Assembly: GCA_029242745.1 (NCBI GenBank)
Contig: JAQWTI010000034.1
Span: 24-64,023 of the forward strand
Reading direction: 5' to 3'
DNA from: Acidimicrobiales bacterium
GTDB taxonomy: Bacteria; Actinomycetota; Acidimicrobiia; Acidimicrobiales; MedAcidi-G1
DNA: 64,000 nucleotides
Position 1 is the first letter of the stretch; every line of letters starts with the position of its first letter. The position numbers were made by a program, and so were the translations under genes. Below, piece after piece: positions 93 to 12,804 of this stretch. The notes beneath the pieces were generated by a model. It was not told where the DNA came from. It made no database searches and was given only the letters and a program-made list of their open reading frames with translations.

Positions 93-413
93 CTACCCCA
101 GAGGGGAGAAGTCGGTCGGCCGAAGAATTTCGGTTGAGCTGGCGATCAAGAAAGGCAGGTTCTTTTCGCGAAAGTCCGTATTTCTCGGATCTGAACGCAC
201 TCTCTCATAAGCGGCATCGCGATCGCTGAGATTGGACCACCTCAGCATCCATAAGAGATCAGCAGAACTTCCGTCACCGATTTCGACGGTCCAGGCGCCG
301 ACAAGATCGAACCCACTGTCCTGAAGCACCGGTAGGAGGTCTAGTCCAAACCTGGTCTGAAACTCAGTCGCAGCGGCAAATGTGGTTTTGTAGTGGCGAA
401 GTTCGTAAAGCAC
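93..413 (-). CDS. NIPSNAP-family protein (small alpha/beta barrel)
   Basis: 106-aa ORF. MLYELRHY...LLWMLRWSNLSDRDAAY pattern resembles the NIPSNAP domain. Only 6 nt from ORF 420..920. Family call by eye only. Confidence 0.5.
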   Translation of the reverse strand: MLYELRHYKTTFAAATEFQTRFGLDLLPVLQDSGFDLVGAWTVEIGDGSSADLLWMLRWSNLSDRDAAYERVRSDPRNTDFREKNLPFLIASSTEILRPTDFSPLG

Positions 414-419
414 AAGCAG

Positions 420-920
420 CTACACCGACTCCGAAGTCAACTTCCAGCCTTCACCAATCTCTCCCATATGGCGAATGGTAAGGCCAATCTTGGTGAACTT
501 TCCGCAACCGTCTTTTACCTTCACCCGCATGGAGTAGGTCCCCCAGCCGATAATCGACTTGGATTCCTCTCCAGCGGTCCACAGGAAATATGCATCAATG
601 TGCACGGTGCCGTCACCGAGCCAACGGGGTGTCATATTCGTGACGAAATGTGACTTACGCGACGGGTCGGCGGCAAACGCCGACTGAAAGAAGTCGACAA
701 CGCTGTCGTAGCCCTCGACAGTCATTTCGCCCGCAGACAGGGCGACCGTGCGGTCGAGTTGTGAAGAGATTGCTGTTAGGTCTTGGGCGTCGACCGCAGC
801 CGCATAGTTGGCTAGGAGAATCCGGGCCGCCTCGGCCCCCTCTAGCGCTGCAAGTCGCTCTTCAATTCCATGATTTGCTTGATTTGTCCGACTACCGCCG
901 GTTTGCCGAAGGATGGCCAT
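420..920 (-). CDS. SnoaL-like / NTF2-superfamily protein
   Basis: 166-aa ORF. ANYAAAVDAQD...HFVTN...IDAYFLW layout is typical of SnoaL_4-like cone-fold proteins. Same strand and tightly spaced with its neighbours. Confidence 0.45.
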   Translation of the reverse strand: MAILRQTGGSRTNQANHGIEERLAALEGAEAARILLANYAAAVDAQDLTAISSQLDRTVALSAGEMTVEGYDSVVDFFQSAFAADPSRKSHFVTNMTPRWLGDGTVHIDAYFLWTAGEESKSIIGWGTYSMRVKVKDGCGKFTKIGLTIRHMGEIGEGWKLTSESV

Positions 921-945: not shown

Positions 946-1785
946 TTAGCGCACAACGTAGCCACCGTCCATCGGAAGGGTGTGGCCGGTGATCCAGCGA
1001 GCATCATCGGACGCTAGGAAGGCGACGACAGCTGCCACGTCTTCAGCGACTGGCCAGCCGGGGATCGGATTCCAATTTTCGCGCTCAGCCCTGAATCCTT
1101 CGGGATCTTCAGAAGTTTCGATGAATGCCTCTACCATCGGGGTGAGTACAGCGGTTGGCGCGATCGCGTTGACCCGAATACCTTGCTTTGCATACTCAAC
1201 TGCCGCTGACCGAGTTATGCCGGTCACACCGGCTTTGGAATACGAGTAGGCCGAGATGTTCAACTGAGCGGTGAGAGCGGCAGTGGACGACGTATTGATG
1301 ATGCTTCCCCCTCCGGACTTCAACATTGCGGTAATCCCGTGCTTGAGCACATAGAAAACTCCGTCGCCGTTCAGAGCGTTGACGGCTCGCCAGTTTTCCT
1401 CGGTGTACTCGTGCAGTGCCTGTTGTTCTCCGGCAATGCCGGCATTGTTGAAAATTATGTCGATCTTCCCAAAGTGCTGCACTGTGGTAGCAATGGCACG
1501 CTCGACTGCTGTGCCATCTGTGACGTCTACTTGAAGACTCAAGGCACCGGGTATAGCCGCAGCGACGCGATCCGCTTCGTCACTGTTGATGTCGACGATG
1601 GCAACATTGGCCCCTTCTTCTGAAAGACGTAGTGCCGTAGCTTCACCAAGACCAGCACCGCCACCGGTAATGAAGGCAACACGGTCTTCGAGCCGGTAGC
1701 ACGCCGCTTGTCGACGCCGAGAATCTCCTGTGCTGCGCATCAGGATCGATGGGTTTATCTGACCAGGTCGATCAGCGCCTGCCAT
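946..1785 (-). CDS. short-chain dehydrogenase/reductase (SDR)
   Basis: TGGGAGLG cofactor motif, NNAG, catalytic YSYSK. The true start may be the internal ATG at 1740. Confidence 0.85.
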   Translation of the reverse strand: MAGADRPGQINPSILMRSTGDSRRRQAACYRLEDRVAFITGGGAGLGEATALRLSEEGANVAIVDINSDEADRVAAAIPGALSLQVDVTDGTAVERAIATTVQHFGKIDIIFNNAGIAGEQQALHEYTEENWRAVNALNGDGVFYVLKHGITAMLKSGGGSIINTSSTAALTAQLNISAYSYSKAGVTGITRSAAVEYAKQGIRVNAIAPTAVLTPMVEAFIETSEDPEGFRAERENWNPIPGWPVAEDVAAVVAFLASDDARWITGHTLPMDGGYVVR

Positions 1786-2001
1786 ATTCTTTACTCCTTC
1801 GATCAGGACTCCGTGGTCAAGAAGCCAGCGCTGTTTGGACTACTAACTGCCGACTATTTGTTGGTTGTATGTCTGATTCTGTCTATCAAGTCACCCTCTG
1901 TGATACAGAATCGCATGTTTGACAAGAAAACAATGTTATAGCATAATCCGGCAAGGCTTGGCCTTTAATTTCTTGCAATCCATCGAGGGGGTAGTACGAC
2001 A

Positions 2002-3657
2002 GTGTTGCGTGCATCGAGAGGCTTCATCCGGATTTTGTTTGTTGCACTACTGGCGGTAGTGGCTGCTAGTTGTGGCAGTGACACTTCTAGTACGAGTAGC
2101 AGTTCGTCGGCTTCTGCTTCGACGGCTGCTCCGGCTACCACGGCTGCGGCTGCTCCGGCTACCACCGCTGCGGCTGCAAGTGATGCTCCTGCAGCTGAGG
2201 CTGAGGCTGAGGCTGCTCCAGCGGTCGAGTATGAGGCACCACCCGAAGACAGCAGTATCGGCTACGCCTGGTCGATTCCGTTGCGGAGCCTTGATCCACA
2301 TGCGACTCCATCAAACTTCGACCCGATCTATATCGGGTTGGCTTATGACACATTGATTGTCCGCGAGTTCGATGGGACGTTCTCACCGATGCTCGCCACG
2401 TCGTGGGAGTTCGTTGAACCAGACGTTCTGGAACTGAAGTTGCGCGAGGGGGTTACGTTCCACGGAGGCCGTGCCTTTGACGCAGAAGCCGTGGTTCTGA
2501 ACTTCGAGCGTGTCACCACAGGGGAGACCTCTACTCGAGGTGGTCCACTGGCCGCTGCCATAGCGTCGGTTGAAGCCGTCGATTCCCTGACGGTCCGAAT
2601 GACGTTGGGTGACGGGCCCGGTGTGATCTTTGGTGCCCTGTCGAGCATGGGTGGCATGATGATTAACCCCGATGCGTTCGATACGGATCTTTCCGTTACC
2701 GCTGACGGCACCGGTCCCTACCGGGTGACTCAGGTTCTAGCCGCCGAGTCGGTCACATTTAAGCGATTCGAGAATACCTGGGCGCCTGAAGACGCACGGG
2801 TCTCGAACCTGAAGATTGTGACCAACAAGGACAGCGCTCAGCGCGTGAACCTTCTTCTCACTGGCGATGTGGATGCCACCAATATTGACACCCACCAGAT
2901 TGAAATGCTGGAGGAGAAGGGATACACCACTCACTTCCGGGTCGGTGACGACGCATTCGTCATGCAACTCAATTGGGAGCGGCTCCCGGATGTCGCGGCT
3001 CGTCAGGCGATTGAGAGTTCGATAGATCGAGCCTTGATCCTTGAGGGGATCCACAAGGGTGTCAGTGAGGCCGGCGGGCAGGTCCAGACCATGGGTGATC
3101 CGGCGTACAACTCCGGTGTCAGTCCTGATCCCGATATCGCGAGGGCAATCCAACTTGCTGCGGATTCGGGTCTTGAGGGGTCGACTCTGAAGTTAATGAC
3201 TGCTGGTGTGCCGAACCTTGAGGCGTATGCCCAGGCGATTCAGCCAATGCTTGAGCAGTTGGGTGTGACGGTAGAGATCACGTTGGTGGAGTGGGGACAG
3301 TTGAACCCTGAGTGGGCCACTGGCAACTACGACCTCTCTCTCATCTACTTCACAGGCAACTCCGACCTTGCGCTCTCCTATGACGCTCTGCTCGGTGCTG
3401 ACTCGGCACTGAACCCTGCTGGCACGGCCCCGGGCGGAATCGATGCCCTAATTGCCGCGACCTTCTCGGAGACAGACCCCGAAGTGCGCACCCAGCAGTT
3501 CAGTGACTTGGCTGCGGCTGTCGACGAAGAGGCCGTTGTAGGGGTGTTGGTGCATCCCGTTCAGCCGATCGTCACGGCACCAGGCATCGAGATCAACGCT
3601 GACCGGCTACGCCTGTTCGGTGGATTCAACCTGCGAGGTATCCACCGAGTCGGCTAG
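2002..3657 (+). CDS. ABC transporter substrate-binding lipoprotein, family 5 (peptide/opine/nickel type)
   Basis: GTG start with GAGGGGG about 10 nt upstream. Signal peptide plus lipobox (LLAVVAASCGS), Ser/Thr/Ala-rich linker, then a family-5 SBP body (SLDPH..., ATSWEFVEPDVLELKLREGVTFHGG). Confidence 0.85.
   Translation: MLRASRGFIRILFVALLAVVAASCGSDTSSTSSSSSASASTAAPATTAAAAPATTAAAASDAPAAEAEAEAAPAVEYEAPPEDSSIGYAWSIPLRSLDPHATPSNFDPIYIGLAYDTLIVREFDGTFSPMLATSWEFVEPDVLELKLREGVTFHGGRAFDAEAVVLNFERVTTGETSTRGGPLAAAIASVEAVDSLTVRMTLGDGPGVIFGALSSMGGMMINPDAFDTDLSVTADGTGPYRVTQVLAAESVTFKRFENTWAPEDARVSNLKIVTNKDSAQRVNLLLTGDVDATNIDTHQIEMLEEKGYTTHFRVGDDAFVMQLNWERLPDVAARQAIESSIDRALILEGIHKGVSEAGGQVQTMGDPAYNSGVSPDPDIARAIQLAADSGLEGSTLKLMTAGVPNLEAYAQAIQPMLEQLGVTVEITLVEWGQLNPEWATGNYDLSLIYFTGNSDLALSYDALLGADSALNPAGTAPGGIDALIAATFSETDPEVRTQQFSDLAAAVDEEAVVGVLVHPVQPIVTAPGIEINADRLRLFGGFNLRGIHRVG
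2124..2171. repeat. 2 x 24-bp direct repeat (1 mismatch) in the low-complexity linker of the SBP, followed by (GCTGAG)x3 at 2194..2211
   Basis: ggctgctccggctaccacggctgc / ggctgctccggctaccaccgctgc read directly. Encodes AAPATTAA twice, in frame. Confidence 0.8.
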
Positions 3658-3721
3658 AAGGGTGTCGTCGAGTGTTTACTAGGCTCGACCGGGTGAGAAA
3701 TCGAAAAGGAGAGATACGTAG

Positions 3722-4021
3722 ATGACTGAAGATAAATATGCAGACTTTCCGACGCTTCTCGTACTTGAGGTGACAGGAATGTTGGATGCGGCCGTAGTGG
3801 TCGACGCCATATTTAAAGCGGCTGATATCTCATTGATAGAATCCCTACGAACAGGGGGAGGCCGAATTGCGATCTGGGCAGGCGGTGAGCTCAGCGCTAT
3901 AAACACGGCAACAGATGCGGCGTACCTCGCGTTGGCCGATTCGAGAGAGGCCCGATCGTGCATCTTCACCCTTCCCAGCGACGTGGTTCGTGAGTTCATG
4001 TCGATGTCGGTGAGCGCGTGA
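3722..4021 (+). CDS. bacterial microcompartment shell protein, BMC-H (single Pfam00936-type domain), copy 1
   Basis: AAAGGAGAG RBS about 10 nt upstream. LLVLEV...VDAIFKAADISL...RTGGGRIAIWAGGELSAINTATDAA matches the canonical BMC-domain order (edge Lys helix, G-G-G pore loop, GDVxAV-like helix). Confidence 0.8.
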   Translation: MTEDKYADFPTLLVLEVTGMLDAAVVVDAIFKAADISLIESLRTGGGRIAIWAGGELSAINTATDAAYLALADSREARSCIFTLPSDVVREFMSMSVSA

Positions 4022-4064
4022 CTAACGTGAAGAGGTACGGAATGACTCAGGAGAGGCGGATGTC

Positions 4065-4376
4065 GTGGCAAGTCAAGTGAGAGCTATCGGAGTTATCGAG
4101 GGTCGTTTGCTCCTTCCGTTGATTAACATTTCTAACGCAATGCGGAAAGTGGCCGATGTGTCCCTTCACCACCTCCAACCAATCGGGGGTGGGATCACTT
4201 TGGCGGTAATCAGCGGAGAGGTTGGCGCTGTGCGAGTTGCGCTTGAGACCGCTGACGCAGCGGCGGTGGAGTATGAAGATTCGACTCGAACCCAAGTCTT
4301 CGCCCATCCTGGTCCGGAGGTGTGGGAGTTGTTCGAGAACCTCGGCGTAAATGTTGATCTCACTCAGAGTCTGTAA
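4065..4376 (+). CDS. bacterial microcompartment shell protein, BMC-H, copy 2
   Basis: GTG start with AGGAG 11 nt upstream. AIGVIEG...SNAMRKVADVSL...PIGGGITLAVISGEVGAVRVALETA. Confidence 0.8.
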   Translation: MASQVRAIGVIEGRLLLPLINISNAMRKVADVSLHHLQPIGGGITLAVISGEVGAVRVALETADAAAVEYEDSTRTQVFAHPGPEVWELFENLGVNVDLTQSL

Positions 4377-4418
4377 TGAATGTCTATTCAATGACGAAAA
4401 ATGCGAGGACGGAAATCG

Positions 4419-4754
4419 ATGTTTGGTAACTCAGTCGCAGTCGGAATTATCGAGATAGACGGCTACGTGGCGATGGCTGCTGCGGTGGAAGCGATGTTCA
4501 AGGCGTCTGACGCCGAGTTCGTCGGATCGCAGCGATCAGGCGGTATCACTTTCTGTGGGGTAGTGCGGGGCGAAATCTCGGCCGTCGAGTATGCGCTCGA
4601 GGCAGGTGTCGAGGCTGCGCGTCAGGCTGATGCCAACGTGAAGACGTCGCTTCTTGTACGACCTGATGGTGACGTCGGAAGTCTTCTCAGCCGTCCTGGA
4701 GCGATGCGGAGAGTTTTCGCTGAAAGTGCCAACGAGACGGATGCCGGAGAGTAG
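4419..4754 (+). CDS. bacterial microcompartment shell protein, BMC-H, copy 3
   Basis: ORF opens at 4401, but the ATG at 4419 has GAGGA 10 nt upstream. AVGIIEIDG...VEAMFKASDAEFVG...RSGGITFCGVVRGEISAVEYALEAG. About 25-aa C-terminal tail. Confidence 0.8.
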   Translation: MFGNSVAVGIIEIDGYVAMAAAVEAMFKASDAEFVGSQRSGGITFCGVVRGEISAVEYALEAGVEAARQADANVKTSLLVRPDGDVGSLLSRPGAMRRVFAESANETDAGE

Positions 4755-4759
4755 TTGGT

Positions 4760-5044
4760 ATGAGGCTCGCACTTGTCAAAGGTATTGCTTGGCCCTCTCG
4801 GAAGATCGACGGAATCGAGGGCACGCGTATCGTGTTGGTTTCTCCGGCTGGTTCAACTGACGAGGGCGAAACTCTGGCAGCTGCAGATCCGTTGCAGGCG
4901 AGCGTGGGTGACTACGTGTTGATCACCGAGGGTCAGGCGGCTGGGGCGGCTCTGCAGCCGGGGAATCCGCGCGCCTACCCACTCGACGCAGCAATCGTGG
5001 CGATCATTCAACCGGACGAGGTCAGGCCTCGTCTATTGGACTGA
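4760..5044 (+). CDS. bacterial microcompartment vertex protein, BMC-P (EutN/CcmL, Pfam03319-type)
   Basis: GGAG 10 nt upstream and 5 nt after the BMC-H3 stop. MRLALVKG...GTRIVLVSP...VGDYVLITEGQAAG...PLDAAIVAII follows the EutN/CcmL consensus layout. Confidence 0.8.
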   Translation: MRLALVKGIAWPSRKIDGIEGTRIVLVSPAGSTDEGETLAAADPLQASVGDYVLITEGQAAGAALQPGNPRAYPLDAAIVAIIQPDEVRPRLLD

Positions 5045-5730
5045 TGGCACAGGTAAGAGTTGCAAGGGGGGGATCACCGGAGCGTCGACCTCATCTTGGC
5101 AGTGCAGTTTCGGCAGCAAACGCTGACGGCGTGCGGCGTGCACTTGTTGCAGGTGGCATGCGGATGCAGTGGAGTAAGACGGGCGGGAGCGATCTAGCGT
5201 CACATCAGCTCTTCGGTCCGGTTCGAGTGCTTAAGCATGCCGTTCATGACTTAGACGCTTGGCTGGAGCAATTCGTTGCTCTCGGTATTGGTCCTTGGTG
5301 GGTTACTCGGGGGCAAGCCCCAGAATCGTTTATCCACCGTGGCAAGCAGAGTGACACCAAGTTCGACTGGGGGCTGACATGGTCAGGTGATGTCATGTAT
5401 GAGCTGATTCAGCCTCTCGACGACCTACCGTCTCCTTACCGTGAGTTTTTGGACGCAGGTCGAGAAGGTCTTCAGCATGGAGCCTTCTATCCGCCCAATT
5501 TTGAAGCCGCAATCGAAGACCTACGTCGATCTGGAAAGACGCCGATCCTCGAAGGCCACTCGGGTGACGCCAAGTTTATGTACTTCGAAGGTCTCGGCTC
5601 GCCTCCCGAACCGATCGAACTTCAGTATCTACCCGAGGACGTGATAGCTAAACACCGTGCCCTGAAAGCGGTCTGCAATAATTGGGACGGCAGCGATCCT
5701 TTCCGTGGCCCACCGCGGAAATGGTGGTGA
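5044..5730 (+). CDS. VOC-family (glyoxalase/bleomycin-resistance/dioxygenase fold) metalloenzyme with N-terminal extension
   Basis: ATG overlaps the BMC-P stop (TGATG at 5042..5046). VOC metal-ligand pattern: VLKHAVHDLD, MYELIQP, GLQHGAFY, PIELQY. About 55 aa precede the VOC core. Confidence 0.7.
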   Translation: MAQVRVARGGSPERRPHLGSAVSAANADGVRRALVAGGMRMQWSKTGGSDLASHQLFGPVRVLKHAVHDLDAWLEQFVALGIGPWWVTRGQAPESFIHRGKQSDTKFDWGLTWSGDVMYELIQPLDDLPSPYREFLDAGREGLQHGAFYPPNFEAAIEDLRRSGKTPILEGHSGDAKFMYFEGLGSPPEPIELQYLPEDVIAKHRALKAVCNNWDGSDPFRGPPRKWW

Positions 5731-6703
5731 TCTCCGAGCAGGGGGTTTTGTCGTTAGTTTGATCCGGGTTGCCTTTGCGCGGCTCCTGGCCGCGATTCCG
5801 ATGATGATTCTCGTATCGCTGATCATCTTCTCTATACCGTATTTCATCCCCGGCGACCCTGCGTTCACGATCGCTGGCCCAAATGCCACGATGGACGACA
5901 TCGCTCGAATTCGATCTGATCTGGGTTTGGACCGCCCCATACCGGGCCAGTACATCGCATGGCTGGGCAATGCAGTCACCCTTGACTTCGGCGACTCCTA
6001 CCTGGTCGGACGAGACGTCCGTACCATGATTGGTGAACGGATGGAGGTGATGCTGTCACTTGCGCTCCTCAGCACCCTGTTTGCCGGCCTGATTGGCATC
6101 CCGCTCGGCATCATTGCTGCATCGAGAATCGGCGGCGTGCGGGATCGTCTCGCAGTCGGATCGGCGTCTATGGGAGTCGCTATACCAAATTATTGGCTTG
6201 CGGCGATCCTTGTGACATACCTCGCGGTCGAGTGGGGTTGGTTTCCTGCGGCAGGCTATGTGCGCATAGGCGATGACCCAGGCCAATGGCTTTGGCATTT
6301 GATTTTGCCGACAATCGCACTCGGGGCGATCTCCGCTGCTGAGGTCACCCGGCAGACGCGCGGCATGATGGCACAAACCATGAACCTCGATTACATCCGC
6401 ACGGCGCGGATGAAGGGGTTGCCGCCTCGAATAGTAATCGGCAAGCACGCGCTTAAGAACGCAGCGATACCTGTCATCACAGCCCTCGGCCTGCAACTGA
6501 CCATTGTTCTTGGAGGGTCGGTAATTGTTGAACAGATTTTTGGGATGCCTGGCCTTGGAGAATTGGCGATCACTGCAGTTCTGGGTCGTGACATCCCAGT
6601 AATTCAGGGAATCGTTCTGCTGACTACTGTGGTGGCGGTCAGCACCAACCTTCTTGTAGACATCGTTACGTCGCACTTGGATCCACGAGTGGTCATCTCA
6701 TGA
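5705..6703 (+). CDS. ABC transporter permease (DppB/OppB-like)
   Basis: N-terminal LIRVAFARLLAAIPMMILVS and a multi-TM body with the EAA-like loop (DYIRTARMKGL). The likely real start is the TTG at 5759, where homologs begin; the ORF opens at GTG 5705. Confidence 0.85.
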   Translation: MAHRGNGGDLRAGGFVVSLIRVAFARLLAAIPMMILVSLIIFSIPYFIPGDPAFTIAGPNATMDDIARIRSDLGLDRPIPGQYIAWLGNAVTLDFGDSYLVGRDVRTMIGERMEVMLSLALLSTLFAGLIGIPLGIIAASRIGGVRDRLAVGSASMGVAIPNYWLAAILVTYLAVEWGWFPAAGYVRIGDDPGQWLWHLILPTIALGAISAAEVTRQTRGMMAQTMNLDYIRTARMKGLPPRIVIGKHALKNAAIPVITALGLQLTIVLGGSVIVEQIFGMPGLGELAITAVLGRDIPVIQGIVLLTTVVAVSTNLLVDIVTSHLDPRVVIS

Positions 6704-7623
6704 CGGTGGTTCCTTCAGAGGGTGCAGCCGGGTCAACTACCGGAGAGGCGACATTCCTAAGGAAACGATATGAGTCTCCTTCGAGACGATTTGCTCGGCG
6801 CTTACTCTCTCAAAAGGTCGCGACAGCATCAGGGGTGATTCTGATTCTCGTTGTCCTGTCTGCGATATTTGCCCCACTTCTTGCCCCGCTTGATCCCAAC
6901 AAGACCGATCTCCGAAACACCCTTTTGCCCCCCGGCTCTGCTGATTTCCTACTAGGCACCGACTATCTCGGGAGAGACGTTCTCAGCCGACTGTTGTTTG
7001 CTGGGCGAGTGTCGTTAGTCGCAGCGGTCCAGGCAGTCAGTGTTGGCCTGATTCTCGGGGTCGCCCCCGCCTTGGTTGCCGGGTATGTCGGGCGGTGGTG
7101 GGACTGGCTACTTATGAGATTTACGGACGCGCTGTTGGCCTTCCCTCCACTGATCCTCGCTATTACGGTTATAGGGATACTCGGTACCGGTCTGACCAAC
7201 GCGATGATTGGAGTCGGGATCATCTTTGCTCCAAGATTTGCTCGGATCACCCGGTCCGCCGTGTTAAGCGTCCGAGAAGAGACTTTCGTCGAAGCCGCTA
7301 AAAGTATGGGACTCAGTCAACCCCGAATCATCTGGCGACACGTGCTTCCGCACCTCCTTTCGCCATTGGTCGTGACTGCCACAGTGTTGGCAGGAATGGC
7401 GATGATTATCGAGGCTGGTTTGAGTTTCATCGGTCTCGGAGTCCAAGTCCCCCAAGCGAGCTGGGGATCAATGCTGTCGACGGCATATCGGTTTATCAGG
7501 GTTTCACCAACACTAATTCTTTGGCCAGGTTTGGCCATCATGATCACCGTGCTCAGCGTCAACCTTTTGGGTGATGGCATTCGTGACGCTCTCGGCCGTG
7601 AAGTGCGAGACATGTCCTCATGA
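6700..7623 (+). CDS. ABC transporter permease (DppC/OppC-like)
   Basis: ATGA overlap with the preceding permease. LGTDYLGRDVLSR motif and FVEAAKSMGLS EAA loop. Confidence 0.85.
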   Translation: MTVVPSEGAAGSTTGEATFLRKRYESPSRRFARRLLSQKVATASGVILILVVLSAIFAPLLAPLDPNKTDLRNTLLPPGSADFLLGTDYLGRDVLSRLLFAGRVSLVAAVQAVSVGLILGVAPALVAGYVGRWWDWLLMRFTDALLAFPPLILAITVIGILGTGLTNAMIGVGIIFAPRFARITRSAVLSVREETFVEAAKSMGLSQPRIIWRHVLPHLLSPLVVTATVLAGMAMIIEAGLSFIGLGVQVPQASWGSMLSTAYRFIRVSPTLILWPGLAIMITVLSVNLLGDGIRDALGREVRDMSS

Positions 7624-8624
7624 CCGTCCAGGACTCTGCCACTACAGCGCTCAGGGTCAAAGAGCTGTGCGTAGATGTCGCCACACCGGAGGGCTGGGCT
7701 ACCGTCGTCGAGGACGTGAGCCTCGCTGTTGATGTAGGTGAGATCCACGGTCTAGTGGGGGAGTCGGGAAGCGGAAAGTCGCTTACGGCCATGGCCATCA
7801 TGGGCCTGATCACCCATTCCCAGAGTGCTCGAGTTACCGGGGGTGAGGTGCTGCTTGGTGACGTCGATCTGCTGAAACTGTCCAATCGAGACCTCCGCAG
7901 ACACCAAGGCAAGGACCTTGCCATGGTGTTTCAAGAACCAATGACGAGTCTGAACCCAGCATTCACCGTTGCTGATCAGATCGGAGAGTCCATCCGCTAC
8001 CACCTCGGCGCATCGCGAAAAGAGGCCAGGGAACGCTCGATAGAACTTTTAGAGGAGGTCGGTATCGCCGACGCTCGTCGGCGCTGCAACGACTACCCAC
8101 ATCAGTTCTCTGGCGGAATGCGTCAACGGGTGATGCTGGCCGTGGCCCTCGCCTGTGAACCGAGACTTCTAATCGCTGATGAACCAACGACTGCGCTCGA
8201 TGTCACAGTTCAGGCACAGATGCTCGAACTTATTCGGTCACTAGTAGAACGTCATGGGATGGCGGTAATTTTTATTACCCACGATCTCGGCGTAATAGCG
8301 GAGATATGTGACCGAACGACAGTCTTTTACGCTGGCCAAGTGATCGAGAGCGGTCTCGTAGGAGAGGTCATTAAGGGGCCGCGTCATCCATATACCGAGG
8401 GGTTGTTGCGCTCGGTTCCCGCTGACGACGATCTTCCTTTGTGGTGGATCGACGGATCACCGCCCCTCCCGGGACAAGTGTCATCAGGGTGCAGGTTCAG
8501 CCCACGTTGCGAGTACAGCAAGAATGAGTGCGACACCCACGCTGTTCCGTTACGCCTGAGTGCTGATGGGCGAGCAATTAGATGCGCGCTCGCTGATGAT
8601 CTCTCTCTGAACGGGAGAGACTGA
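7620..8624 (+). CDS. ABC transporter ATP-binding protein (DppD/OppD-like)
   Basis: ATGA overlap. Walker A GESGSGKS, signature FSGGMRQR, Walker B LLIADEPTTALD, C-terminal oligopeptide-type Cys motif (GCRFSPRC). Confidence 0.9.
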   Translation: MTVQDSATTALRVKELCVDVATPEGWATVVEDVSLAVDVGEIHGLVGESGSGKSLTAMAIMGLITHSQSARVTGGEVLLGDVDLLKLSNRDLRRHQGKDLAMVFQEPMTSLNPAFTVADQIGESIRYHLGASRKEARERSIELLEEVGIADARRRCNDYPHQFSGGMRQRVMLAVALACEPRLLIADEPTTALDVTVQAQMLELIRSLVERHGMAVIFITHDLGVIAEICDRTTVFYAGQVIESGLVGEVIKGPRHPYTEGLLRSVPADDDLPLWWIDGSPPLPGQVSSGCRFSPRCEYSKNECDTHAVPLRLSADGRAIRCALADDLSLNGRD

Positions 8625-8626
8625 CG

Positions 8627-9679
8627 TTGACCCAGGTCCTCGAAGTTTCTGAAATGAGTGTTTCGTTTCCCAGACGCTCCGGCCTGTTGGGGAAGTCGCA
8701 ACCGTTACGCGTCGTGGAGAACGTATCGTTTGAGGTGGGTAAGGGCGAAGTGGTGGCCCTTGTTGGCGAGTCTGGCTCGGGAAAGTCCACCATTGCTCGG
8801 GCTGTTCTGCGTTTGTTGCCAATCGACAATGGGCGGATAACTCTCGCAGATGTGGATATCACGACGCTGTCACAACGAGCCCTGCGGCCGCACCGTCGGA
8901 ACGCACAGCTTGTTTTCCAGGACCCCTATTCATCGCTCGATCCATCGATGACGGCTATTGAGATTGTCGAAGAACCCCTTCGTGGGTTTGCTATGAGTCG
9001 TGAGGAGCGCCTGCGCTCCGCCCAAGAGTTGCTTGCCAGCGTCGGCCTCGCCGGGGTTGAAGGCCGCTACCCCTATGAATTCTCAGGTGGTCAACGACAA
9101 CGGATCGCTATTGCTAGAGCCCTTGCTCCCCGGCCGGCGTTGATCATCTGCGATGAACCTGTATCCGCTCTGGATCTGTCAACACAGAACCAGATCATCT
9201 CGCTACTTGACTCTCTTCGGCAGAGTTTGGGAGTTTCTTATCTATTCATTAGCCATGATCTATCCGTCGTGCGTCGTATCGCTGATCGAGTTTTGGTGAT
9301 GTACGCCGGCGAGATTGTGGAAGAGGGACCGACGGAGCGAGTGTTTCGCGATCCTGTCCACCCCTACACCCTGGCTCTTCTTTCTGCCGTACCTGCAGTT
9401 GTAGGTGACCGGTCAAAGCATGCCAAGCGAATTGTCTTGGAAGGCGACCTTCCCGTGCCCGGAGCGCCTCCACCGGGATGCCGATTCCATACACGGTGCC
9501 CGTTTGCTATGGATGTCTGTCGCTCGGAGGTTCCTGCATGGACAGAGTTTGATCACGGCGTATCGGGAAGGTGTCATCTGCACACCTCCGGGTCAACACT
9601 AGGTTTCTCCGGTCTAACTCAGTTTGCAGAAGATGCGATGGCATCTACGGACAGAGACCGAGGTCAGACATCTATTTAA
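8627..9679 (+). CDS. ABC transporter ATP-binding protein (DppF/OppF-like)
   Basis: Starts 2 nt after the previous stop. GESGSGKST, FSGGQRQR, LIICDEPVSALD, GCRFHTRCP. Confidence 0.9.
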   Translation: MTQVLEVSEMSVSFPRRSGLLGKSQPLRVVENVSFEVGKGEVVALVGESGSGKSTIARAVLRLLPIDNGRITLADVDITTLSQRALRPHRRNAQLVFQDPYSSLDPSMTAIEIVEEPLRGFAMSREERLRSAQELLASVGLAGVEGRYPYEFSGGQRQRIAIARALAPRPALIICDEPVSALDLSTQNQIISLLDSLRQSLGVSYLFISHDLSVVRRIADRVLVMYAGEIVEEGPTERVFRDPVHPYTLALLSAVPAVVGDRSKHAKRIVLEGDLPVPGAPPPGCRFHTRCPFAMDVCRSEVPAWTEFDHGVSGRCHLHTSGSTLGFSGLTQFAEDAMASTDRDRGQTSI

Positions 9680-9705
9680 CCGGTGAGACTAAGGATGGAT
9701 TTGTA

Positions 9706-10110
9706 GTGGTACCGGCTGAGTTGTCGGACCTTTTGGACCGGCCGCTTGTAGCGGCTCTGGCCACCGAACGCCCTGACGGCACGCTGCAATGCAATCCAAT
9801 GTGGTTCCGCTTCGATGGAACTGAGATAAAGATGAGCCACACATCAACGAGGCAGAAGATTCGCAACTGGGATGCAAACACGGCTGTGAGCTTGTGCATC
9901 ACGGATCCTGCGAACACTTTTCGATATGTGGAGGTTCGTGGTTTCGTAACTGGTTTGGCGAGCGACCTTGATGCACAATTCCACCGAGAGCTTCGTGTCC
10001 GGTACGGCATGGACGCAACCAACGTTCCTGATGCCGCTGAACGTGTGGTCGTCACTATCCGGATTACCTACATCGGTGGTCGGGAGATGGCAGATCAGAC
10101 GAAAACATGA
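9706..10110 (+). CDS. PPOX-class (pyridoxamine-5'-phosphate-oxidase-fold) FMN/F420-dependent enzyme
   Basis: ORF opens at 9571 inside the ATPase gene. The GTG at 9706 has AAGGA about 10 nt upstream. LLDRPLVAALATERPDGTLQCNPMWF...VSLCITDP...YVEVRG is typical of split-barrel PPOX/F420 family proteins. Confidence 0.65.
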   Translation: MVPAELSDLLDRPLVAALATERPDGTLQCNPMWFRFDGTEIKMSHTSTRQKIRNWDANTAVSLCITDPANTFRYVEVRGFVTGLASDLDAQFHRELRVRYGMDATNVPDAAERVVVTIRITYIGGREMADQTKT

Positions 10111-10462
10111 CAAGAGTGGTGACTTGCGTCAAGTGCGTCGTGAATGAGACGGCACGCTCGCCAGAGTGATGTTCGGATTCGGACAAATGACTGCATGCCG
10201 TCATTGATTCAGCCCTGATCCGACTTTTACGGGGACCACTGTCCTCCTAGCCGCTGTCCGGTTTTACTGGTGGGCGCCTACTGGCCGCAGCGGTAAGAGT
10301 AAGGGCGCTGTTTGCGGTGGCGGAGAGCCGGCGGACAATAGATCTAGTATCGACTTGTCGAAATCGTTAAAATCTAATGTCGATCAGTATCGAGTTCATT
10401 TAGGAGCACGTCGTATGTGCTCACTGTTCCATCGGCGATGCGACGACAGCAGCGTGCCAGTG

Positions 10463-11680
10463 CTAGTGCGGTTTTGATGCGATGACGCCGGAGAGTTCGA
10501 GAGCGTTCAGTTCCTCATCGGACATTCCGAGAAGGCCGCCAAGTACAGCTGCATTGTGTTCGCCGAGAGCCGCCGGCTGATAATTGTCGATGGGCAGTGG
10601 GTCGGTGCTCTTGATGGGAAAGCCGGGGATTGTGACGTGTCCGGCAAGCGGGTCGTCGACAATGCGCACCATCTTGCGTTCGACGAAATGGGGATGTACA
10701 ACGATCTGGCTGGGGGTGAGAACGGGTCCAGCAGGGACGCGTGCCGATGTCAGTGCGTCGAGTACCTCATTATCTGTCTCGAAAGTCGCCATCCAGGTTT
10801 CGATGATCTCAGTCAGTTCATCGCGATGTTTAATGCGGTCAGGATTGGACCTGAACCGGTCGTCTTCTCCTAGTTCCGGTCTCCCTAACGCGGACCACAG
10901 ATTCGCCATCTGCGCTTCGGTGGACAAGATGACGATCCATCCGACGGGACCACGGAATGCGCCTGCTGGTGACAGGGTTGGAAAGTGTTGGCCCTGGCGA
11001 ATCGGCTCGGGCCCATCAGGGTCCATCGAGACGGTGTGAATGGACATGTCGTGAAAGTGCAACAGGGCATCAACCATGGAGATATCGAGGTGGGTGCCTC
11101 GGCTGGTTCGTTCCCTGTGGTACAGCGCATGACCGATAGCGCCAAAGGCATGCGCACCAGCGTTAGTGTCGGCGACTCCGATCCCGGCGATGGTGGGTGG
11201 CCCATCGGGATCACCGGTCATGTGCATGAGGCCACTCATGGCCTGTGCCACCAAGTCGAAGCAAGGACGCTCAGAGAATGGCCCAGTCTGTCCAAACCCG
11301 GAGATCGACACCATAATCAGGTCCGGTTTGATTCTCCGAAGATCCTCGTACCCGAGGCCTTTATGCGCCATCACCCCTGGGCTGAAGTTCTCGACCAACA
11401 CGTCGATGCGTGCGATCAGGGCCTTGATGATTGCGATCCCGTCATCGGTGTTGAGGTCCAGACACACGCTGCGCTTACCACGATTCTGCTGAATGTGCGC
11501 GCCTGCTCGACGATTGATGCGTGGGCGGTTTGACCGATTCGGATCTCCGTAGGGGGGTTGCTCGATCTTGATTACATCGGCGCCCAACTCCACCAACATG
11601 CGGGTGCAGGCAGGTCCTGCTAGATACCGGGTGAGGTCGAGCACGGTAACGCCCTCCAACCATCTCCGATCGTCGCTCAC
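10463..11680 (-). CDS. family III CoA-transferase (CaiB/BaiF type)
   Basis: GVTVLDLTRYLAGPACTRMLVELGADVIKIE N-terminus. The GTG start overlaps the upstream ACAD stop (GTGA at 11680..11677). The ORF track extends it to 11791. Confidence 0.85.
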   Translation of the reverse strand: MSDDRRWLEGVTVLDLTRYLAGPACTRMLVELGADVIKIEQPPYGDPNRSNRPRINRRAGAHIQQNRGKRSVCLDLNTDDGIAIIKALIARIDVLVENFSPGVMAHKGLGYEDLRRIKPDLIMVSISGFGQTGPFSERPCFDLVAQAMSGLMHMTGDPDGPPTIAGIGVADTNAGAHAFGAIGHALYHRERTSRGTHLDISMVDALLHFHDMSIHTVSMDPDGPEPIRQGQHFPTLSPAGAFRGPVGWIVILSTEAQMANLWSALGRPELGEDDRFRSNPDRIKHRDELTEIIETWMATFETDNEVLDALTSARVPAGPVLTPSQIVVHPHFVERKMVRIVDDPLAGHVTIPGFPIKSTDPLPIDNYQPAALGEHNAAVLGGLLGMSDEELNALELSGVIASKPH

Positions 11681-12804
11681 GCTGCTGCCCCTGTTCGAGG
11701 TTCGCGTGGAAGCTTTAAGACTCGCTCTCCGAGGATATTGCGCATGATTTCTGACATTCCGCCCTGAATTGTGTACGCCGACGCGTAGCAAATAGCGTTG
11801 GGCACGTCATCGCCAACCATGGCAGCTGGTCCGAGCACCTCTGCTGCGAACCGTGCTACCCGTTGCTCGTGCTCTGTACAGAATAGTTTAGTGCCGGCGC
11901 TGAAGTCGGTTGGGCCCTGCTGGAGAGCGCCTCTGTAGACCATGAGACGCCCCAGATGGTACCCAGACTCAATAGTTGCGATCTCTTGACGCACCCTCGG
12001 GTCAGAGCGGTCGGCATGCTCGAGGGCAAGGTCGTAGAGCGGTCGATTCGATACAAGCCGGTCGATACCTCCTCGTTCGTGGGCCAACTGGACCATGGTT
12101 TGTTTGAAGGCGGCACCTTCGACACCAACGAGATTTTCGACCGGCACCTCAACATCGGTGAAAAATACTTCGCAAAAGTGCTTGTTGCTAACCATGTCCA
12201 CGACAGGGCGCACTTCGATCCCAGCGAGGTCCATGGGAACGATTAGCTCACTCACCCCCTCATGAGGTGGCCCGGAGGTATCCGTACGACAGATCAAATA
12301 GCAGTATGTCGCTTCTGCTGCGAGACTCGTCCAGATCTTCTGGCCGTTAACTACAAAAACCGAACCCACACGTACCGCAGAGGTACTCAGTGTGGCCAAG
12401 TCGGATCCGGCGTCGGGTTCGCTCATACCGATGCACCACGTCGCTTCGCCCGAGAGTATCCCCGGAAGGAATTCTGTCTTCTGATCGTTGGTGCCATAGG
12501 TGTAAATAGCGGGGCCCATCTGGCGATCGGCTATCCAACTCGCCGCAATCGGCGCCCCTGCGCTGATCATCTCCTCGGCCATGATGACGCGTTCGATGCC
12601 TGGTCGATTGCCACCTCCGACCTCCCGGGGCCAGGTCATACCGATCCAACCTTCTGACGCCAATATCCGGGCGAAGTCCTTCGAGTAGCCGTTGATCCAA
12701 GAGTCGTGCCACTTGCCATATTCGACGACGCCGTGTTGGGCGATTTCTCGGGCTCGGTGTTGGAGATCCCTCCATTCGGGAGGCATTGCGAACTCGAGAC
12801 TCAT
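11677..12804 (-). CDS. acyl-CoA dehydrogenase
   Basis: GMSEPDAGSD and C-terminal YTIQGGMSEIMRNILGE motifs. 4-nt overlap with the upstream amidohydrolase gene. Confidence 0.85.
   Translation of the reverse strand: MSLEFAMPPEWRDLQHRAREIAQHGVVEYGKWHDSWINGYSKDFARILASEGWIGMTWPREVGGGNRPGIERVIMAEEMISAGAPIAASWIADRQMGPAIYTYGTNDQKTEFLPGILSGEATWCIGMSEPDAGSDLATLSTSAVRVGSVFVVNGQKIWTSLAAEATYCYLICRTDTSGPPHEGVSELIVPMDLAGIEVRPVVDMVSNKHFCEVFFTDVEVPVENLVGVEGAAFKQTMVQLAHERGGIDRLVSNRPLYDLALEHADRSDPRVRQEIATIESGYHLGRLMVYRGALQQGPTDFSAGTKLFCTEHEQRVARFAAEVLGPAAMVGDDVPNAICYASAYTIQGGMSEIMRNILGERVLKLPREPRTGAAA

What the first reader, a model, noticed from the sequence alone, without database searches (positions are those of the whole stretch)
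5044..5730. VOC-family metalloenzyme translationally coupled to the vertex gene: candidate encapsulated cargo with a long N-terminal extension
The start codon overlaps the BMC-P stop (TGATG).

The VOC core begins around residue 55 (FGPVRVLKHAVHDLD) and keeps a plausible His/Glu/His/Glu metal set (KHAVH, YELIQP, LQHGAF, IELQY).

The preceding ~55 residues (MAQVRVARGGSPERRPHLGSAVSAANADGVRRALVAGGMRMQWSKTGGSD...) contain no domain I recognise. They are Gly/Pro/Ser/Arg-rich with a short, potentially helical stretch (NADGVRRALVAG). That is the general format of BMC encapsulation peptides: a short amphipathic helix plus a flexible linker.

VOC enzymes (glyoxalase I, epimerases, extradiol dioxygenases) often act on reactive carbonyl or catecholic intermediates, which would fit compartmentalisation.
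Basis: inference. Interest (0 to 1): 0.7.

Follow-up and report, generated by a model that had tools for sequence, protein, structure and literature searches.

The report
Microcompartment-linked VOC enzyme with disordered extension
A glyoxalase-fold (VOC) enzyme encoded directly after the shell genes of an apparently uncatalogued bacterial microcompartment in marine Acidimicrobiia carries an N-terminal extension and a C-terminal tail found only in microcompartment-linked copies, which makes it a strong candidate cargo, but the extension is not the usual amphipathic helix.

Summary
Window 5044-5730 is a real 228-aa VOC/Glyoxalase_4 gene. Its ATG overlaps the stop of a BMC-P gene (TGATG), downstream of three BMC-H genes.

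The ~55-aa N-terminal extension is translated and under purifying selection. It is present in every shell-linked ortholog (53-94% identity; BMC-P lies immediately upstream in 9/9 loci with enough flank) and absent from the nearest shell-less homologs.

It is not an amphipathic helix.

The proposed His ligands are not conserved. The canonical first-ligand position is Val62; E120/H145/E192 match methylmalonyl-CoA epimerase ligands.

Two neighbouring enzymes (SDR, SnoaL-like) also carry N-terminal peptides. These are missing in homologous gene clusters that lack shell genes and the VOC.

The shell genes and VOC are nested inside an Opp-type ABC importer operon. No aldehyde dehydrogenase is in the window, and I found no description in the Sutter 2021 catalog or the searchable literature.

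Best reading: cargo, or cargo organiser, of a new microcompartment type with non-canonical targeting peptides.

The parts
1919..1947 (+). Promoter-like site (TTGACA-17-CATAAT, 11/12) upstream of the SBP gene; candidate operon promoter
   Evidence: Consensus scan only. The total number of sites in the region equals the shuffle expectation, so this is weak evidence.
2002..3657 (+). Family-5 (Opp/Dpp/Nik-type) ABC substrate-binding lipoprotein; first gene of the operon
   Evidence: PF00496, 180.6 bits. Below every NCBIfam equivalog cut-off. Occupies the same position in L001, L002, L006, L007 and L014.
3722..4021 (+). BMC-H paralog 1 (divergent)
   Evidence: PF00936, 35.4 bits. Orthologs in L001, L002, L006 and L014.
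4065..4376 (+). BMC-H paralog 2
   Evidence: PF00936, 51.3 bits. Orthologs aligned.
4401..4754 (+). BMC-H paralog 3 (most canonical). The true start is probably a few codons downstream of 4401.
   Evidence: PF00936, 54.8 bits. Best match to a natural PDB protein is the HO BMC-H 5djb at 52 bits; an engineered tandem BMC-H fusion, 6ner, scores higher. Alignment.
4760..5044 (+). BMC-P vertex pentamer gene; its stop overlaps the VOC start
   Evidence: PF03319, 60.9 bits. Best PDB matches reach only about 28 bits. Lies immediately upstream of the VOC in 9/9 loci with enough flank.
5044..5730 (+). VOC (Glyoxalase_4, methylmalonyl-CoA-epimerase-like fold) protein, 228 aa; the finding
5044..5208 (+). 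N-terminal extension, residues 1-55. Predicted disordered and rich in Gly, Ser, Arg and Pro; found only in shell-linked orthologs.
   Evidence: pLDDT below 50 for residues 1-49. pN/pS 0.15-0.18. Absent from P0015, P0016 and P0019-P0028.
5044..5076 (+). Conserved block 1: M-A-x-[VI]-R-[VI]-x-x-G-G-S (MAQVRVARGGS). Resembles the N-terminus of the neighbouring SnoaL-like protein (MAILRQTGGS).
   Evidence: Alignments A2 and A4. Ungapped similarity has only marginal support: 164/2000 shuffles reach the observed score.
5143..5175 (+). Conserved block 2: [LV]-V-x-G-G-[MIV]-x-[MVI]-[RQ]-x-S (LVAGGMRMQWS)
   Evidence: Alignment A2; G38 is invariant.
5707..5727 (+). Invariant C-terminal tail G-P-P-R-x-W-W (residues 222-228). 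Absent from shell-less homologs, which end at ...WDGxxP[IL]R.
   Evidence: Alignments A1 and A2. A six-frame motif scan finds it only in the VOC orthologs.
5705..6703 (+). ABC permease 1 (OppB/DppB type). The likely true start is TTG at 5759, about 28 nt after the VOC stop.
   Evidence: PF00528 and PF19300. The start is inferred from the sequence.
6700..9679 (+). ABC permease 2 (6700-7623) and two ATPases (7620-8624, 8627-9679)
   Evidence: ORFs. The same order is annotated in L001, L002, L006 and L014.
9571..10110 (+). F420-dependent PPOX-class oxidoreductase; last conserved gene of the operon (true start probably later than 9571)
   Evidence: PF01243. TIGR03618, 96.3 bits against a cut-off of 79.
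946..1785 (-). SDR oxidoreductase with a shell-locus-specific N-terminal extension of about 30 aa (conserved core S-I-L-M-R-S-T-x-D); candidate co-cargo
   Evidence: Twelve clusters of 263-302 aa (mostly 277-279; the two shortest are called from the MRST Met) versus hundreds of 250-252-aa homologs that begin at 'MRFEDK'. The Met of MRST is TTC in L001 and GTC in L002, so it is not a start codon there. AlphaFold2 pLDDT below 50 for residues 1-25. No extension in the shell-less clusters L015-L017.
420..920 (-). SnoaL_4 (NTF2-like) protein with the shell-locus-specific N-terminal block M-A-I-L-R-Q-T-G-G; candidate co-cargo
   Evidence: In the exhaustive profile search all non-shell relatives align only from profile position ~15-21. 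The block is missing in L015 and L016.
93..413 (-). NIPSNAP-family protein; conserved pathway neighbour without an extension
   Evidence: PF07978. Alignments.

Best explanation
The ORF encodes a VOC-fold protein that is a dedicated component of a bacterial microcompartment (BMC) locus type I could not find described. The organism is a marine Acidimicrobiia (Actinomycetota).

The protein has three parts:
- A disordered N-terminal extension of about 55 aa with two conserved Gly-Gly-centred blocks.
- A methylmalonyl-CoA-epimerase-like core that keeps three of the four metal-ligand positions.
- An invariant C-terminal GPPRxWW tail.

Shown: both appendages occur only in orthologs that sit directly behind a BMC-P gene. 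The VOC is gained and lost together with the shell genes.

Inferred: one or both appendages tether the protein to the inner face of the shell in an extended, non-helical manner. The VOC would then be lumenal cargo, together with the SDR and the SnoaL-like enzyme. Those two have acquired their own short basic N-terminal peptides only in shell-bearing genomes.

Inferred chemistry: isomerisation or epimerisation of a carbonyl or acyl-CoA-type intermediate derived from the solute imported by the surrounding Opp-type ABC transporter. This would occur within a CoA-ligase / acyl-CoA-dehydrogenase / hydratase catabolic pathway that also exists without a compartment in related bacteria.
For: **Gene and start**
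- ATG at 5044; it is the first start in the ORF in 6 of 7 loci.
- An in-frame stop lies 3-6 nt upstream in L001, L006 and L010.
- Extension pN/pS is 0.15-0.18.

**Linkage to the shell**
- The order SBP, three BMC-H, BMC-P, VOC, permeases, ATPases, PPOX recurs in the window, L001, L002 and L014, and as far as the shorter contigs extend in L004, L006 and L007.
- BMC-P lies directly upstream of the VOC in L009 and L010.
- The nearest shell-less VOC homologs (P0015 and P0016 at 47-48% identity; P0019 at 38%) lack both the extension and the tail. They have no shell genes nearby.

**Natural controls**
- L015 and L016/L017 carry the same pathway genes: SDR, SnoaL_4, NIPSNAP, PPOX, AMP-binding, small VOC, acyl-CoA dehydrogenases, 3HCDH, ECH, Amidohydro_2 and GntR.
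- They have no shell genes, no extended VOC and a different transporter.
- There the SDR is 251 aa without an extension, and the SnoaL-like protein lacks its N-terminal block.

**SDR and SnoaL peptides are shell-specific**
-.

**Motif similarity**
- The VOC extension of non-window clades shares FRS[ST] with the SDR's MRST. Shuffles reaching the observed score: 0/2000, 4/2000 and 2/2000 for widths 5, 6 and 8.
- The pattern hydrophobic-R-[ST]-[ST] occurs 11 times against 0.57 expected across five loci.

**Fold**
- Top Foldseek hits are methylmalonyl-CoA epimerases: 3gm5, 6bu2, 1jc4, 6wf6 and 3rmu.
- E120, H145 and E192 align with MCE ligands Q65, H91 and E141.
Against: - There is no physical evidence of encapsulation or even of shell assembly.
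- The extension lacks the amphipathic helix that defines all experimentally validated metabolosome encapsulation peptides.
- In the window's own clade the VOC extension does not carry the hydrophobic-R-S-[ST] motif. Its similarity to the SDR and SnoaL peptides is not significant (more than 1400/2000 shuffles reach the observed score).
- The motif was defined after seeing the data, and the loci are phylogenetically related, so the enrichment statistics are optimistic.
- The canonical first metal ligand is Val62 in all shell-linked orthologs, against Gln in shell-less relatives and 3gm5. Catalytic competence is therefore uncertain.
- The substrate is unknown. No NCBIfam model matches the VOC.
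Confidence: 0.55

Rival explanations
1. The VOC is mainly an organiser or scaffold derived from an enzyme, analogous to CcmM or CsoS2 in carboxysomes, rather than a catalytic cargo. As a (presumed) dimer, its two to three short motif copies in a disordered arm and its invariant C-terminal tail would cross-link shell and cargo during assembly.
For: - The VOC is gained and lost with the shell genes, not with the pathway enzymes. It is absent from the shell-less clusters L015-L017, which keep all other enzymes.
- The extension holds repeated Gly-Gly/hydrophobic-R-S-[ST] blocks in most clades.
- The first metal-ligand position has changed from Gln to Val in every shell-linked member.
- The gene sits directly after BMC-P in all loci.
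Against: - The core is under very strong purifying selection (pN/pS 0.05-0.08).
- It retains E120, H145 and E192 and many family-invariant active-site residues, as expected for an active enzyme.
- There are only two or three motif copies, far fewer than in known scaffolds.
- There is no evidence for multivalent binding.
Confidence: 0.17
2. The VOC is a cytosolic enzyme that is merely co-transcribed with the shell and transporter genes. The extension and tail would then serve another purpose, such as oligomerisation, regulation, stability, or docking to the ABC importer.
For: - The shell genes and VOC are embedded in the transporter operon in every locus. A link to import is as well supported genetically as a link to the lumen.
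- There is no helix-type encapsulation peptide.
- In the window clade the motif is not shared with the other candidate cargo.
Against: - This does not explain why the SDR and SnoaL-like orthologs acquire N-terminal peptides only where shell genes are present.
- It does not explain why the VOC always follows BMC-P directly.
- BMC loci typically encode their cargo next to the shell genes (general knowledge; Sutter 2021, PMC8217296).
Confidence: 0.2
3. The extension is an annotation artefact and translation starts at the internal Met (M39 or M41).
For: - There is no obvious Shine-Dalgarno sequence before 5044.
- In-frame ATGs exist at codons 39 and 41.
Against: - The internal Met is not conserved; orthologs have Ile, Val, Ala, Leu or Thr there.
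- Residues 1-14 are conserved at the protein level across loci sharing 53-94% identity.
- Stops lie immediately upstream of the conserved ATG in three loci.
- pN/pS is 0.15-0.18, with pS 0.38-0.72.
- The stop/start overlap provides translational coupling in the window.
Confidence: 0.02

Closest known systems
Canonical BMC encapsulation peptides (PduP, PduD, EutC, CcmN, aldehyde dehydrogenase extensions)
   Same: - A terminal appendage on an enzyme encoded next to shell genes.
- Joined to the catalytic domain by a poorly conserved low-complexity linker.
- Absent from homologs outside BMC loci.
- Other enzymes of the locus also carry terminal appendages.
   Different: - Canonical peptides are amphipathic alpha-helices of about 15-20 residues (established knowledge).
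- This extension is Gly/Pro-rich and predicted disordered. It has no G/P-free 11-mer in 12 of 14 orthologs.
- The conserved elements are Gly-Gly-centred blocks and, in most clades, hydrophobic-R-S-[ST].
- There is an additional invariant 7-residue C-terminal tail.
Disordered multivalent carboxysome organisers (CsoS2 with short [IV][TS]G-type repeats; CcmM) and encapsulin cargo-loading peptides
   Same: Short, extended, Gly-containing linear motifs in disordered regions that bind a protein shell. The motif is repeated within one polypeptide. This comparison is recalled from the literature and was not tested here.
   Different: - Here the motifs are attached to a folded VOC enzyme, with only two or three copies.
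- No sequence homology was tested or claimed.
- The shell is a metabolosome-like BMC-H/BMC-P shell without Rubisco, and it is not an HK97-fold encapsulin.
Methylmalonyl-CoA epimerase and the 3gm5-like Glyoxalase_4 subfamily (PF13669)
   Same: - Two-module beta-alpha-beta-beta-beta VOC fold.
- Best sequence and structure neighbours are 3gm5 (E = 3e-23 by profile; Foldseek TM 0.76 normalised to the target) and then bona fide MCEs.
- Three metal-ligand positions are conserved.
   Different: - No NCBIfam model, including any MCE equivalog model in that library, matches the VOC.
- Identity to MCEs is only 17-25%.
- The first ligand position is Val.
- The core is about 30 residues longer at the C-terminus, with a helix at 198-212.
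- The N-extension and C-tail are unique.
Actinobacterial and 'unknown function' BMC types of the Sutter 2021 catalog (ARO, RMM1/2, BUF1-3)
   Same: - A BMC-H plus BMC-P shell locus in Actinomycetota.
- Like the BUF types, it lacks an aldehyde dehydrogenase in the locus.
- Like ARO, it has few shell paralog types and no BMC-T.
   Different: - The enzyme set (VOC, SDR, SnoaL_4, NIPSNAP, CoA ligase) matches none of them.
- The shell genes are nested in an SBP_bac_5 ABC transporter operon.
- The catalog's main text and held supplementary files contain no pfam13669, pfam00903, pfam00496 or pfam00528.
- The class Acidimicrobiia is not linked to BMCs in any paper found.

Membership tests
VOC superfamily / Pfam Glyoxalase_4 (PF13669) | Significant match to the family model | tested here: met
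   42.2 bits against a gathering cut-off of 27, residues 66-171.
VOC superfamily / Pfam Glyoxalase_4 (PF13669) | Paired beta-alpha-beta-beta-beta modules forming the metal/substrate cavity | tested here: met
   The AlphaFold2 model has pLDDT above 90 over most of residues 56-212. Predicted strands: 62-66, 85-91, 95-98, 107-114, 117-124, 142-148, 167-173, 176-184 and 189-195. Predicted helices include 70-79, 131-137 and 153-162. 117 Foldseek PDB matches have E <= 0.001, and the top 50 listed are all VOC-fold proteins.
VOC superfamily / Pfam Glyoxalase_4 (PF13669) | Four metal ligands, one on each of strands beta1, beta4, beta5 and beta8 | tested here: inconclusive
   E120, H145 and E192 are conserved and align with MCE Q65, H91 and E141. 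The beta1 position is Val62 in all 14 shell-linked sequences, against Gln in shell-less relatives. The neighbouring K64 is invariant. Metal binding itself cannot be tested here.
Methylmalonyl-CoA epimerase (EC 5.1.99.1) | Match to a curated equivalog model | tested here: not met
   NCBIfam returned no family for the VOC at E <= 0.01. The profile versus PDB MCE 1jc4 gives only E = 1e-4, over the C-terminal half.
Methylmalonyl-CoA epimerase (EC 5.1.99.1) | His/Gln/His/Glu ligand set and the catalytic Glu pair | tested here: inconclusive
   Three ligand positions are retained and the first is lost. The second catalytic Glu (Glu48 in P. shermanii, recalled from memory) could not be aligned.
Canonical BMC encapsulation peptide | Terminal extension absent from homologs outside BMC loci | tested here: met
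Canonical BMC encapsulation peptide | Amphipathic alpha-helix of about 15-20 residues | tested here: not met
   There is no predicted helix in residues 1-49. No G/P-free 11-mer exists in 12 of 14 orthologs, and helix propensity is about 1.0 or lower. The candidate stretch is not conserved.
Canonical BMC encapsulation peptide | Related peptide shared by several cargo proteins of the same locus | tested here: inconclusive
   The SDR and SnoaL-like enzymes have shell-specific N-terminal peptides. Similarity between the SDR and VOC peptides is significant in other clades (0-4 of 2000 shuffles). It is not significant for the window clade's VOC.
Canonical BMC encapsulation peptide | Necessary and sufficient for shell association | not testable with these tools
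   Requires expression and pull-down experiments or complex structure prediction.
Bacterial microcompartment locus | BMC-H (PF00936) and BMC-P (PF03319) genes clustered together | tested here: met
   Three BMC-H genes and one BMC-P gene at 3722-5044, conserved in six further loci.
Metabolosome (aldehyde-processing BMC) | Aldehyde dehydrogenase (PF00171), phosphotransacylase and alcohol dehydrogenase core in the locus | tested here: not met
   No PF00171 was found among 52 window ORFs scanned against Pfam, covering nearly all ORFs of at least 200 aa up to position 58,050. None appears in the annotated genes of L001, L002, L006 or L014. A satellite locus elsewhere in the genome cannot be excluded.

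The most novel reading that the evidence does not exclude
A previously uncatalogued microcompartment type of marine Acidimicrobiia uses a new class of targeting signal. The signals would be short, disordered, basic, Gly-flanked linear peptides (M-A-x-hydrophobic-R..GG and hydrophobic-R-S-[ST]) instead of amphipathic helices, plus a GPPRxWW C-terminal anchor. They would recruit at least three enzymes (VOC, SDR, SnoaL-like). The shell operon is physically nested in, and functionally coupled to, an ABC importer. The VOC, gained together with the shell, would be the multivalent organiser or signature enzyme.
Probability: 0.3. Interest if true: 0.85.

Novelty: new variant of a known kind. Interest (0 to 1): 0.68.

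Why it matters
Every experimentally validated way of loading catabolic microcompartments relies on amphipathic helical encapsulation peptides. A natural system with short non-helical peptides and a C-terminal tail would broaden the rules used to predict cargo. It would also give engineers orthogonal targeting tags.

The locus appears to define a microcompartment type without an aldehyde dehydrogenase, in Acidimicrobiia that appear in marine metagenomes including Tara Oceans. The shell genes sit inside an ABC importer operon.

Sister gene clusters encode the same pathway without a shell. That is a rare natural with/without comparison for asking why a pathway becomes compartmentalised and what has to change in the enzymes when it does.

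Tried and rejected
1. **Internal start at M39/M41.** Rejected. The Met is not conserved, stops lie just upstream of the conserved ATG in three loci, and the extension is under purifying selection.
2. **Amphipathic-helix encapsulation peptide.** Rejected.
3. **KHAVH histidines as metal ligands.** Rejected, because they are not conserved. By register with the second module, the canonical position is Val62.
4. **PSSM of the SDR block scanned over the window, L001, L002 and L006 proteomes.** The VOC hits rank only 4th to 8th or lower of 4,000-19,000 positions, so the result is not decisive.
5. **Six-frame scan of the window and all loci for the VOC motifs and tail in other proteins.** None found apart from the VOC orthologs.
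6. **Extensions on the other neighbours.** ACADs, AMP-binding ligase, 3HCDH, ECH, second SDR, NIPSNAP, PPOX and small VOC show none.
7. **Riboswitch or other RNA clue to the substrate.** Rfam found nothing in the window.
8. **NCBIfam naming of the SBP, SDR, ACADs and CoA-transferase to infer the substrate.** Only sub-threshold hits: nickel/opine-type SBPs, and cyclohexanecarboxyl- or pimeloyl-CoA-type dehydrogenases.
9. **Literature.** Six full-text searches found no paper linking BMCs with VOC/glyoxalase cargo, SnoaL, methylmalonyl-CoA epimerase or Acidimicrobiia. The Sutter 2021 catalog text and held supplements lack the relevant Pfam numbers.
10. **Secretion signal (Tat or lipoprotein) as an alternative reading of the extension.** Rejected by inspection: there is no hydrophobic h-region.
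Full report
**1. The observation**

The window carries, on the + strand, the following genes:
- a family-5 ABC substrate-binding lipoprotein (2002-3657);
- three BMC-H genes (3722-4021, 4065-4376, 4401-4754);
- a BMC-P gene (4760-5044);
- a 228-aa ORF (5044-5730) whose ATG shares its A with the BMC-P TGA.

Two ABC permeases, two ATPases and an F420-type PPOX oxidoreductase follow.

The 228-aa protein hits Pfam Glyoxalase_4 over residues 66-171 (42.2 bits). No NCBIfam model matches it. An AlphaFold2 model built on 22 homologs has pLDDT above 90 over most of residues 56-212 and below 50 for residues 1-49. The description 'VOC core from about residue 55 preceded by a domain-less extension' is therefore accurate.

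**2. Is the extension real?**

- ATG 5044 is the first start codon in the ORF.
- In L001, L006 and L010 an in-frame stop lies 3-6 nt upstream of the homologous ATG, so the N-terminus cannot lie further upstream.
- The internal Met residues (39 and 41) are Ile, Val, Ala, Leu or Thr in orthologs.
- Between the window, L004 and L009 the extension has pN/pS 0.15-0.18 at pS 0.38-0.72. The core has 0.05-0.08.

The extension is translated and constrained, though less tightly than the core.

**3. Distribution**

A search of 5.8 billion protein clusters found 14 relatives at 53-87% identity; 13 are full length and carry the extension, and one is an N-terminally truncated call. A GTDB genome scan added a 94%-identical ortholog, L004. 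There is then a gap to homologs of 48% identity or less, which are mostly 160-180 aa and cover only the core.

Every extension-bearing gene with enough upstream DNA lies directly after a BMC-P gene: the window, L001, L002, L004, L006, L007, L009, L010 and L014. Where the contig is long enough, the whole order SBP, H, H, H, P, VOC, permeases, ATPases, PPOX is conserved.

The closest extension-less homologs (P0015, P0016, P0019) have no shell genes within 5-10 kb.

L004 comes from a MAG submitted as an uncultured Acidimicrobiaceae bacterium. It is collinear with window 1167-10199 at 91.4% nucleotide identity. This places the window in marine Acidimicrobiia. Several family members come from Tara and other marine metagenomes.

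**4. What the extension looks like**

- AlphaFold2 predicts no helix before residue 53.
- Gly plus Pro make up 15-27% of the extension.
- 12 of 14 orthologs lack any Gly/Pro-free 11-residue window.
- Mean helix propensity of the best windows is about 1.0 or lower. Three classical encapsulation peptides, written from memory, score 1.08-1.16.
- The stretch NADGVRRALVAG exists only in the window's clade.

Three elements are conserved across all shell-linked orthologs:
- (a) M-[AT]-x-[VI]-R-[VIT]-x-x-G-G at the extreme N-terminus.
- (b) [LV]-V-x-G-G-[MIV]-x-[MVI]-[RQ]-x-S around residues 34-44.
Its last seven residues extend beyond the ...WDGxxP[IL]R end of the shell-less homologs.

In the more distant clades, blocks (a) and (b) and an intervening G-G-[AS]-x-F-R-S-[ST] block form two or three copies of a hydrophobic-R-[ST]-[ST] unit.

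**5. The neighbours change in the same way**

Aligning the conserved neighbours across loci showed two further appendages.

*The SDR (946-1785, minus strand).* It has an N-terminal extension of about 30 aa with the conserved core S-I-[LRQ]-M-R-S-T-x-D.
- Twelve SDR clusters of 263-302 aa (mostly 277-279; 69-95% identity) carry all or part of the extension; two are gene calls that begin at the Met of the MRST block. Below 65% identity there is an abrupt switch to 250-252-aa SDRs that begin at MRFEDK.
- The Met of MRST is TTC in L001 and GTC in L002, so it is not a start codon there. Shine-Dalgarno-like sequences precede the upstream ATGs.
- AlphaFold2 gives pLDDT below 50 for residues 1-25.

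*The SnoaL_4 protein (420-920, minus strand).* It starts with M-[AT]-I-[LIF]-R-[HQ]-T-x-G.
- A word-based search found only shell-linked relatives.
- The exhaustive profile search of 1.84 billion representatives found 307 relatives. Of the 150 listed, only the shell-linked clusters align from the first few profile positions. The next best hits start at profile position about 15-21 and have short acidic N-termini.

No other neighbour shows an extension. This covers the ACADs, AMP-binding ligase, 3HCDH, ECH, second SDR, NIPSNAP, PPOX and small VOC.

**6. Natural controls**

Two independent gene clusters, L015 and L016/L017, encode the same pathway set: 3HCDH, two ACADs, Amidohydro_2, GntR, thiolase, ECH, SDR, SnoaL_4, NIPSNAP, PPOX, AMP-binding ligase and a small VOC.
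- They have no BMC-H, no BMC-P and no extended VOC.
- Their ABC transporter is of the Peripla_BP_4 type instead of the family-5 type.
- In them the SDR is 251 aa with no extension (57-63% identity), and the SnoaL-like protein lacks its N-terminal block.

The shell genes, the extended VOC and the family-5 transporter therefore behave as one module. The N-terminal peptides on the SDR and the SnoaL-like protein co-occur with that module. This is the strongest evidence obtainable here that the appendages are related to the compartment.

**7. How far the 'shared motif' goes**

- A column-shuffle profile comparison finds FRSTS (VOC, non-window clades) similar to MRSTG (SDR). Shuffles reaching the observed score were 0/2000, 4/2000 and 2/2000 for widths 5, 6 and 8.
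- SDR versus SnoaL (LMRSTG versus ILRHTD) gives 46-90/2000.
- The window clade's VOC extension is not significantly similar to either.
- Composition-preserving shuffles give 11 hydrophobic-R-[ST][ST] occurrences against 0.57 expected over five loci. In the window itself only the SDR has the motif.
- A PSSM scan over the locus proteomes was not decisive.

A common linear motif is therefore a well-founded lead for the family. It is not demonstrated for this particular VOC. Its N-terminus (MAQVRVARGGS) resembles the SnoaL N-terminus (MAILRQTGGS) only at a marginal level.

**8. The catalytic core**

- The best PDB sequence match is 3gm5 (E = 3e-23). The sequence table lists its molecule as 'lactoylglutathione lyase and related lyases', and the structure entry is titled a putative methylmalonyl-CoA epimerase. 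Genuine epimerases follow weakly.
- Foldseek ranks 3gm5 first, then epimerases from M. tuberculosis, P. shermanii, human and S. coelicolor, ahead of HPPD and glyoxalase I.
- From the HMM alignment, E120, H145 and E192 correspond to ligands Gln65, His91 and Glu141 of the P. shermanii enzyme.
- By register with the second module (H145...D152 then helix; V62...D69 then helix), the first-ligand position is Val62. It is invariant in shell-linked sequences, but Gln in shell-less relatives and in 3gm5. K64, two residues on and on the same face of the strand, is invariant only in the shell-linked clade.

The site is therefore remodelled. Whether it still binds metal cannot be decided here. Given the surrounding CoA ligase, CoA-transferase, ACADs and hydratases, an acyl-CoA epimerase/isomerase-type reaction is the most economical guess. 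It remains an inference.

**9. Comparison with what is known**

- The shell proteins are bona fide BMC-H and BMC-P domains but are distant from solved natural shell proteins: 28 bits for BMC-P, 28-32 bits for paralog 1 and 52 bits for paralog 3 (paralog 2 was not searched).
- No aldehyde dehydrogenase or phosphotransacylase is in the window or in the related loci. In catalog terms this would be a 'BMC of unknown function'.
- The Sutter 2021 catalog text and its held supplementary files mention none of the Pfam families that characterise this locus.
- Full-text searches found no paper linking BMCs with VOC/glyoxalase cargo, SnoaL, methylmalonyl-CoA epimerase or Acidimicrobiia.
- The library is incomplete, because subscription journals are missing. 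'Undescribed' here means not found.

**10. Verdict**

The interpretation, candidate encapsulated cargo with a targeting extension, is supported by comparative genomics. Its stated mechanism, an amphipathic helix, is contradicted, and the metal-site details need correction.

The most likely reading (about 0.55) is that the VOC is a compartment-dedicated protein tethered to the shell by non-helical appendages.

The main rivals are:
- an enzyme-derived organiser role (about 0.17);
- a cytosolic or transporter-associated role for the appendages (about 0.2).

I classify it as a new variant of a known kind: BMC cargo with a non-canonical candidate targeting signal, in a locus type I could not find described.

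Noticed in passing
window 2002-10110 (compare L001, L002, L006, L014 with L015, L016): The shell genes and VOC are inserted between the substrate-binding gene and the permease genes of an Opp/Dpp-type ABC importer operon in every locus. Shell-less sister clusters use a different (Peripla_BP_4) transporter. Shell, VOC and transporter therefore look like one exchangeable module, which hints at a functional link between import and the compartment.
   Followed up: partly
window 946-1785 (-) and 420-920 (-): The SDR and the SnoaL_4 protein next to the operon carry short N-terminal peptides (..PSILMRSTGD.. and MAILRQTGGS..). These occur only in shell-bearing loci and are missing in orthologs from shell-less clusters. 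They are candidate co-cargo.
   Followed up: yes
window 5707-5727: An invariant C-terminal tail GPPRxWW on the VOC is absent from all shell-less homologs and is more conserved than the N-terminal extension.
   Followed up: partly
window 5227-5235 (VOC residues 62-64): In all shell-linked VOCs the canonical first metal-ligand position is Val62 and K64 is invariant. Shell-less relatives have Gln and Gly at these positions. This suggests a remodelled active site.
   Followed up: partly
window 16031-25961: Four paralogous adenosine-deaminase-family genes lie at 16031-17092, 22555-23586, 23692-24720 and 24819-25961. They surround a GcvT-like gene, Rieske/VanA-type oxygenase components and a GST, and are followed by a Bmp/PnrA-type ABC transporter (26045-30805). 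This looks like an N-heterocycle or methylated-amine demethylation/deamination island.
   Followed up: no
L005 (CAUZRH010000062.1) compared with L004 (CAWVUB010000096.1): A contig 86% identical in nucleotide sequence to window 5187-11985 is binned in a MAG labelled Dehalococcoidia. The 91%-identical L004 is labelled Acidimicrobiaceae. This is probably a binning error rather than a transfer.
   Followed up: partly
window 3722-4021; L002 8934-9233: The first BMC-H paralog is very divergent (35 bits to PF00936). In L002 the ORF aligned with the second paralog (99 aa) has no precomputed Pfam hit at all. The three paralogs are each conserved as orthologous sets across loci.
   Followed up: no
window 52465-55902: A sulfate-activation cluster: a PAPS-reductase-domain protein (CysD/CysH-like), a fused CysN-type GTPase with APS kinase, and a second stand-alone APS kinase.
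   Followed up: no
window 10463-15752: A family III CoA-transferase, two acyl-CoA dehydrogenases, Amidohydro_2 and a second SDR follow the operon. Sub-threshold NCBIfam similarities point to cyclohexanecarboxyl-, pimeloyl- or glutaryl-CoA-type enzymes. This is a weak hint at an alicyclic or dicarboxylic acid substrate.
   Followed up: partly
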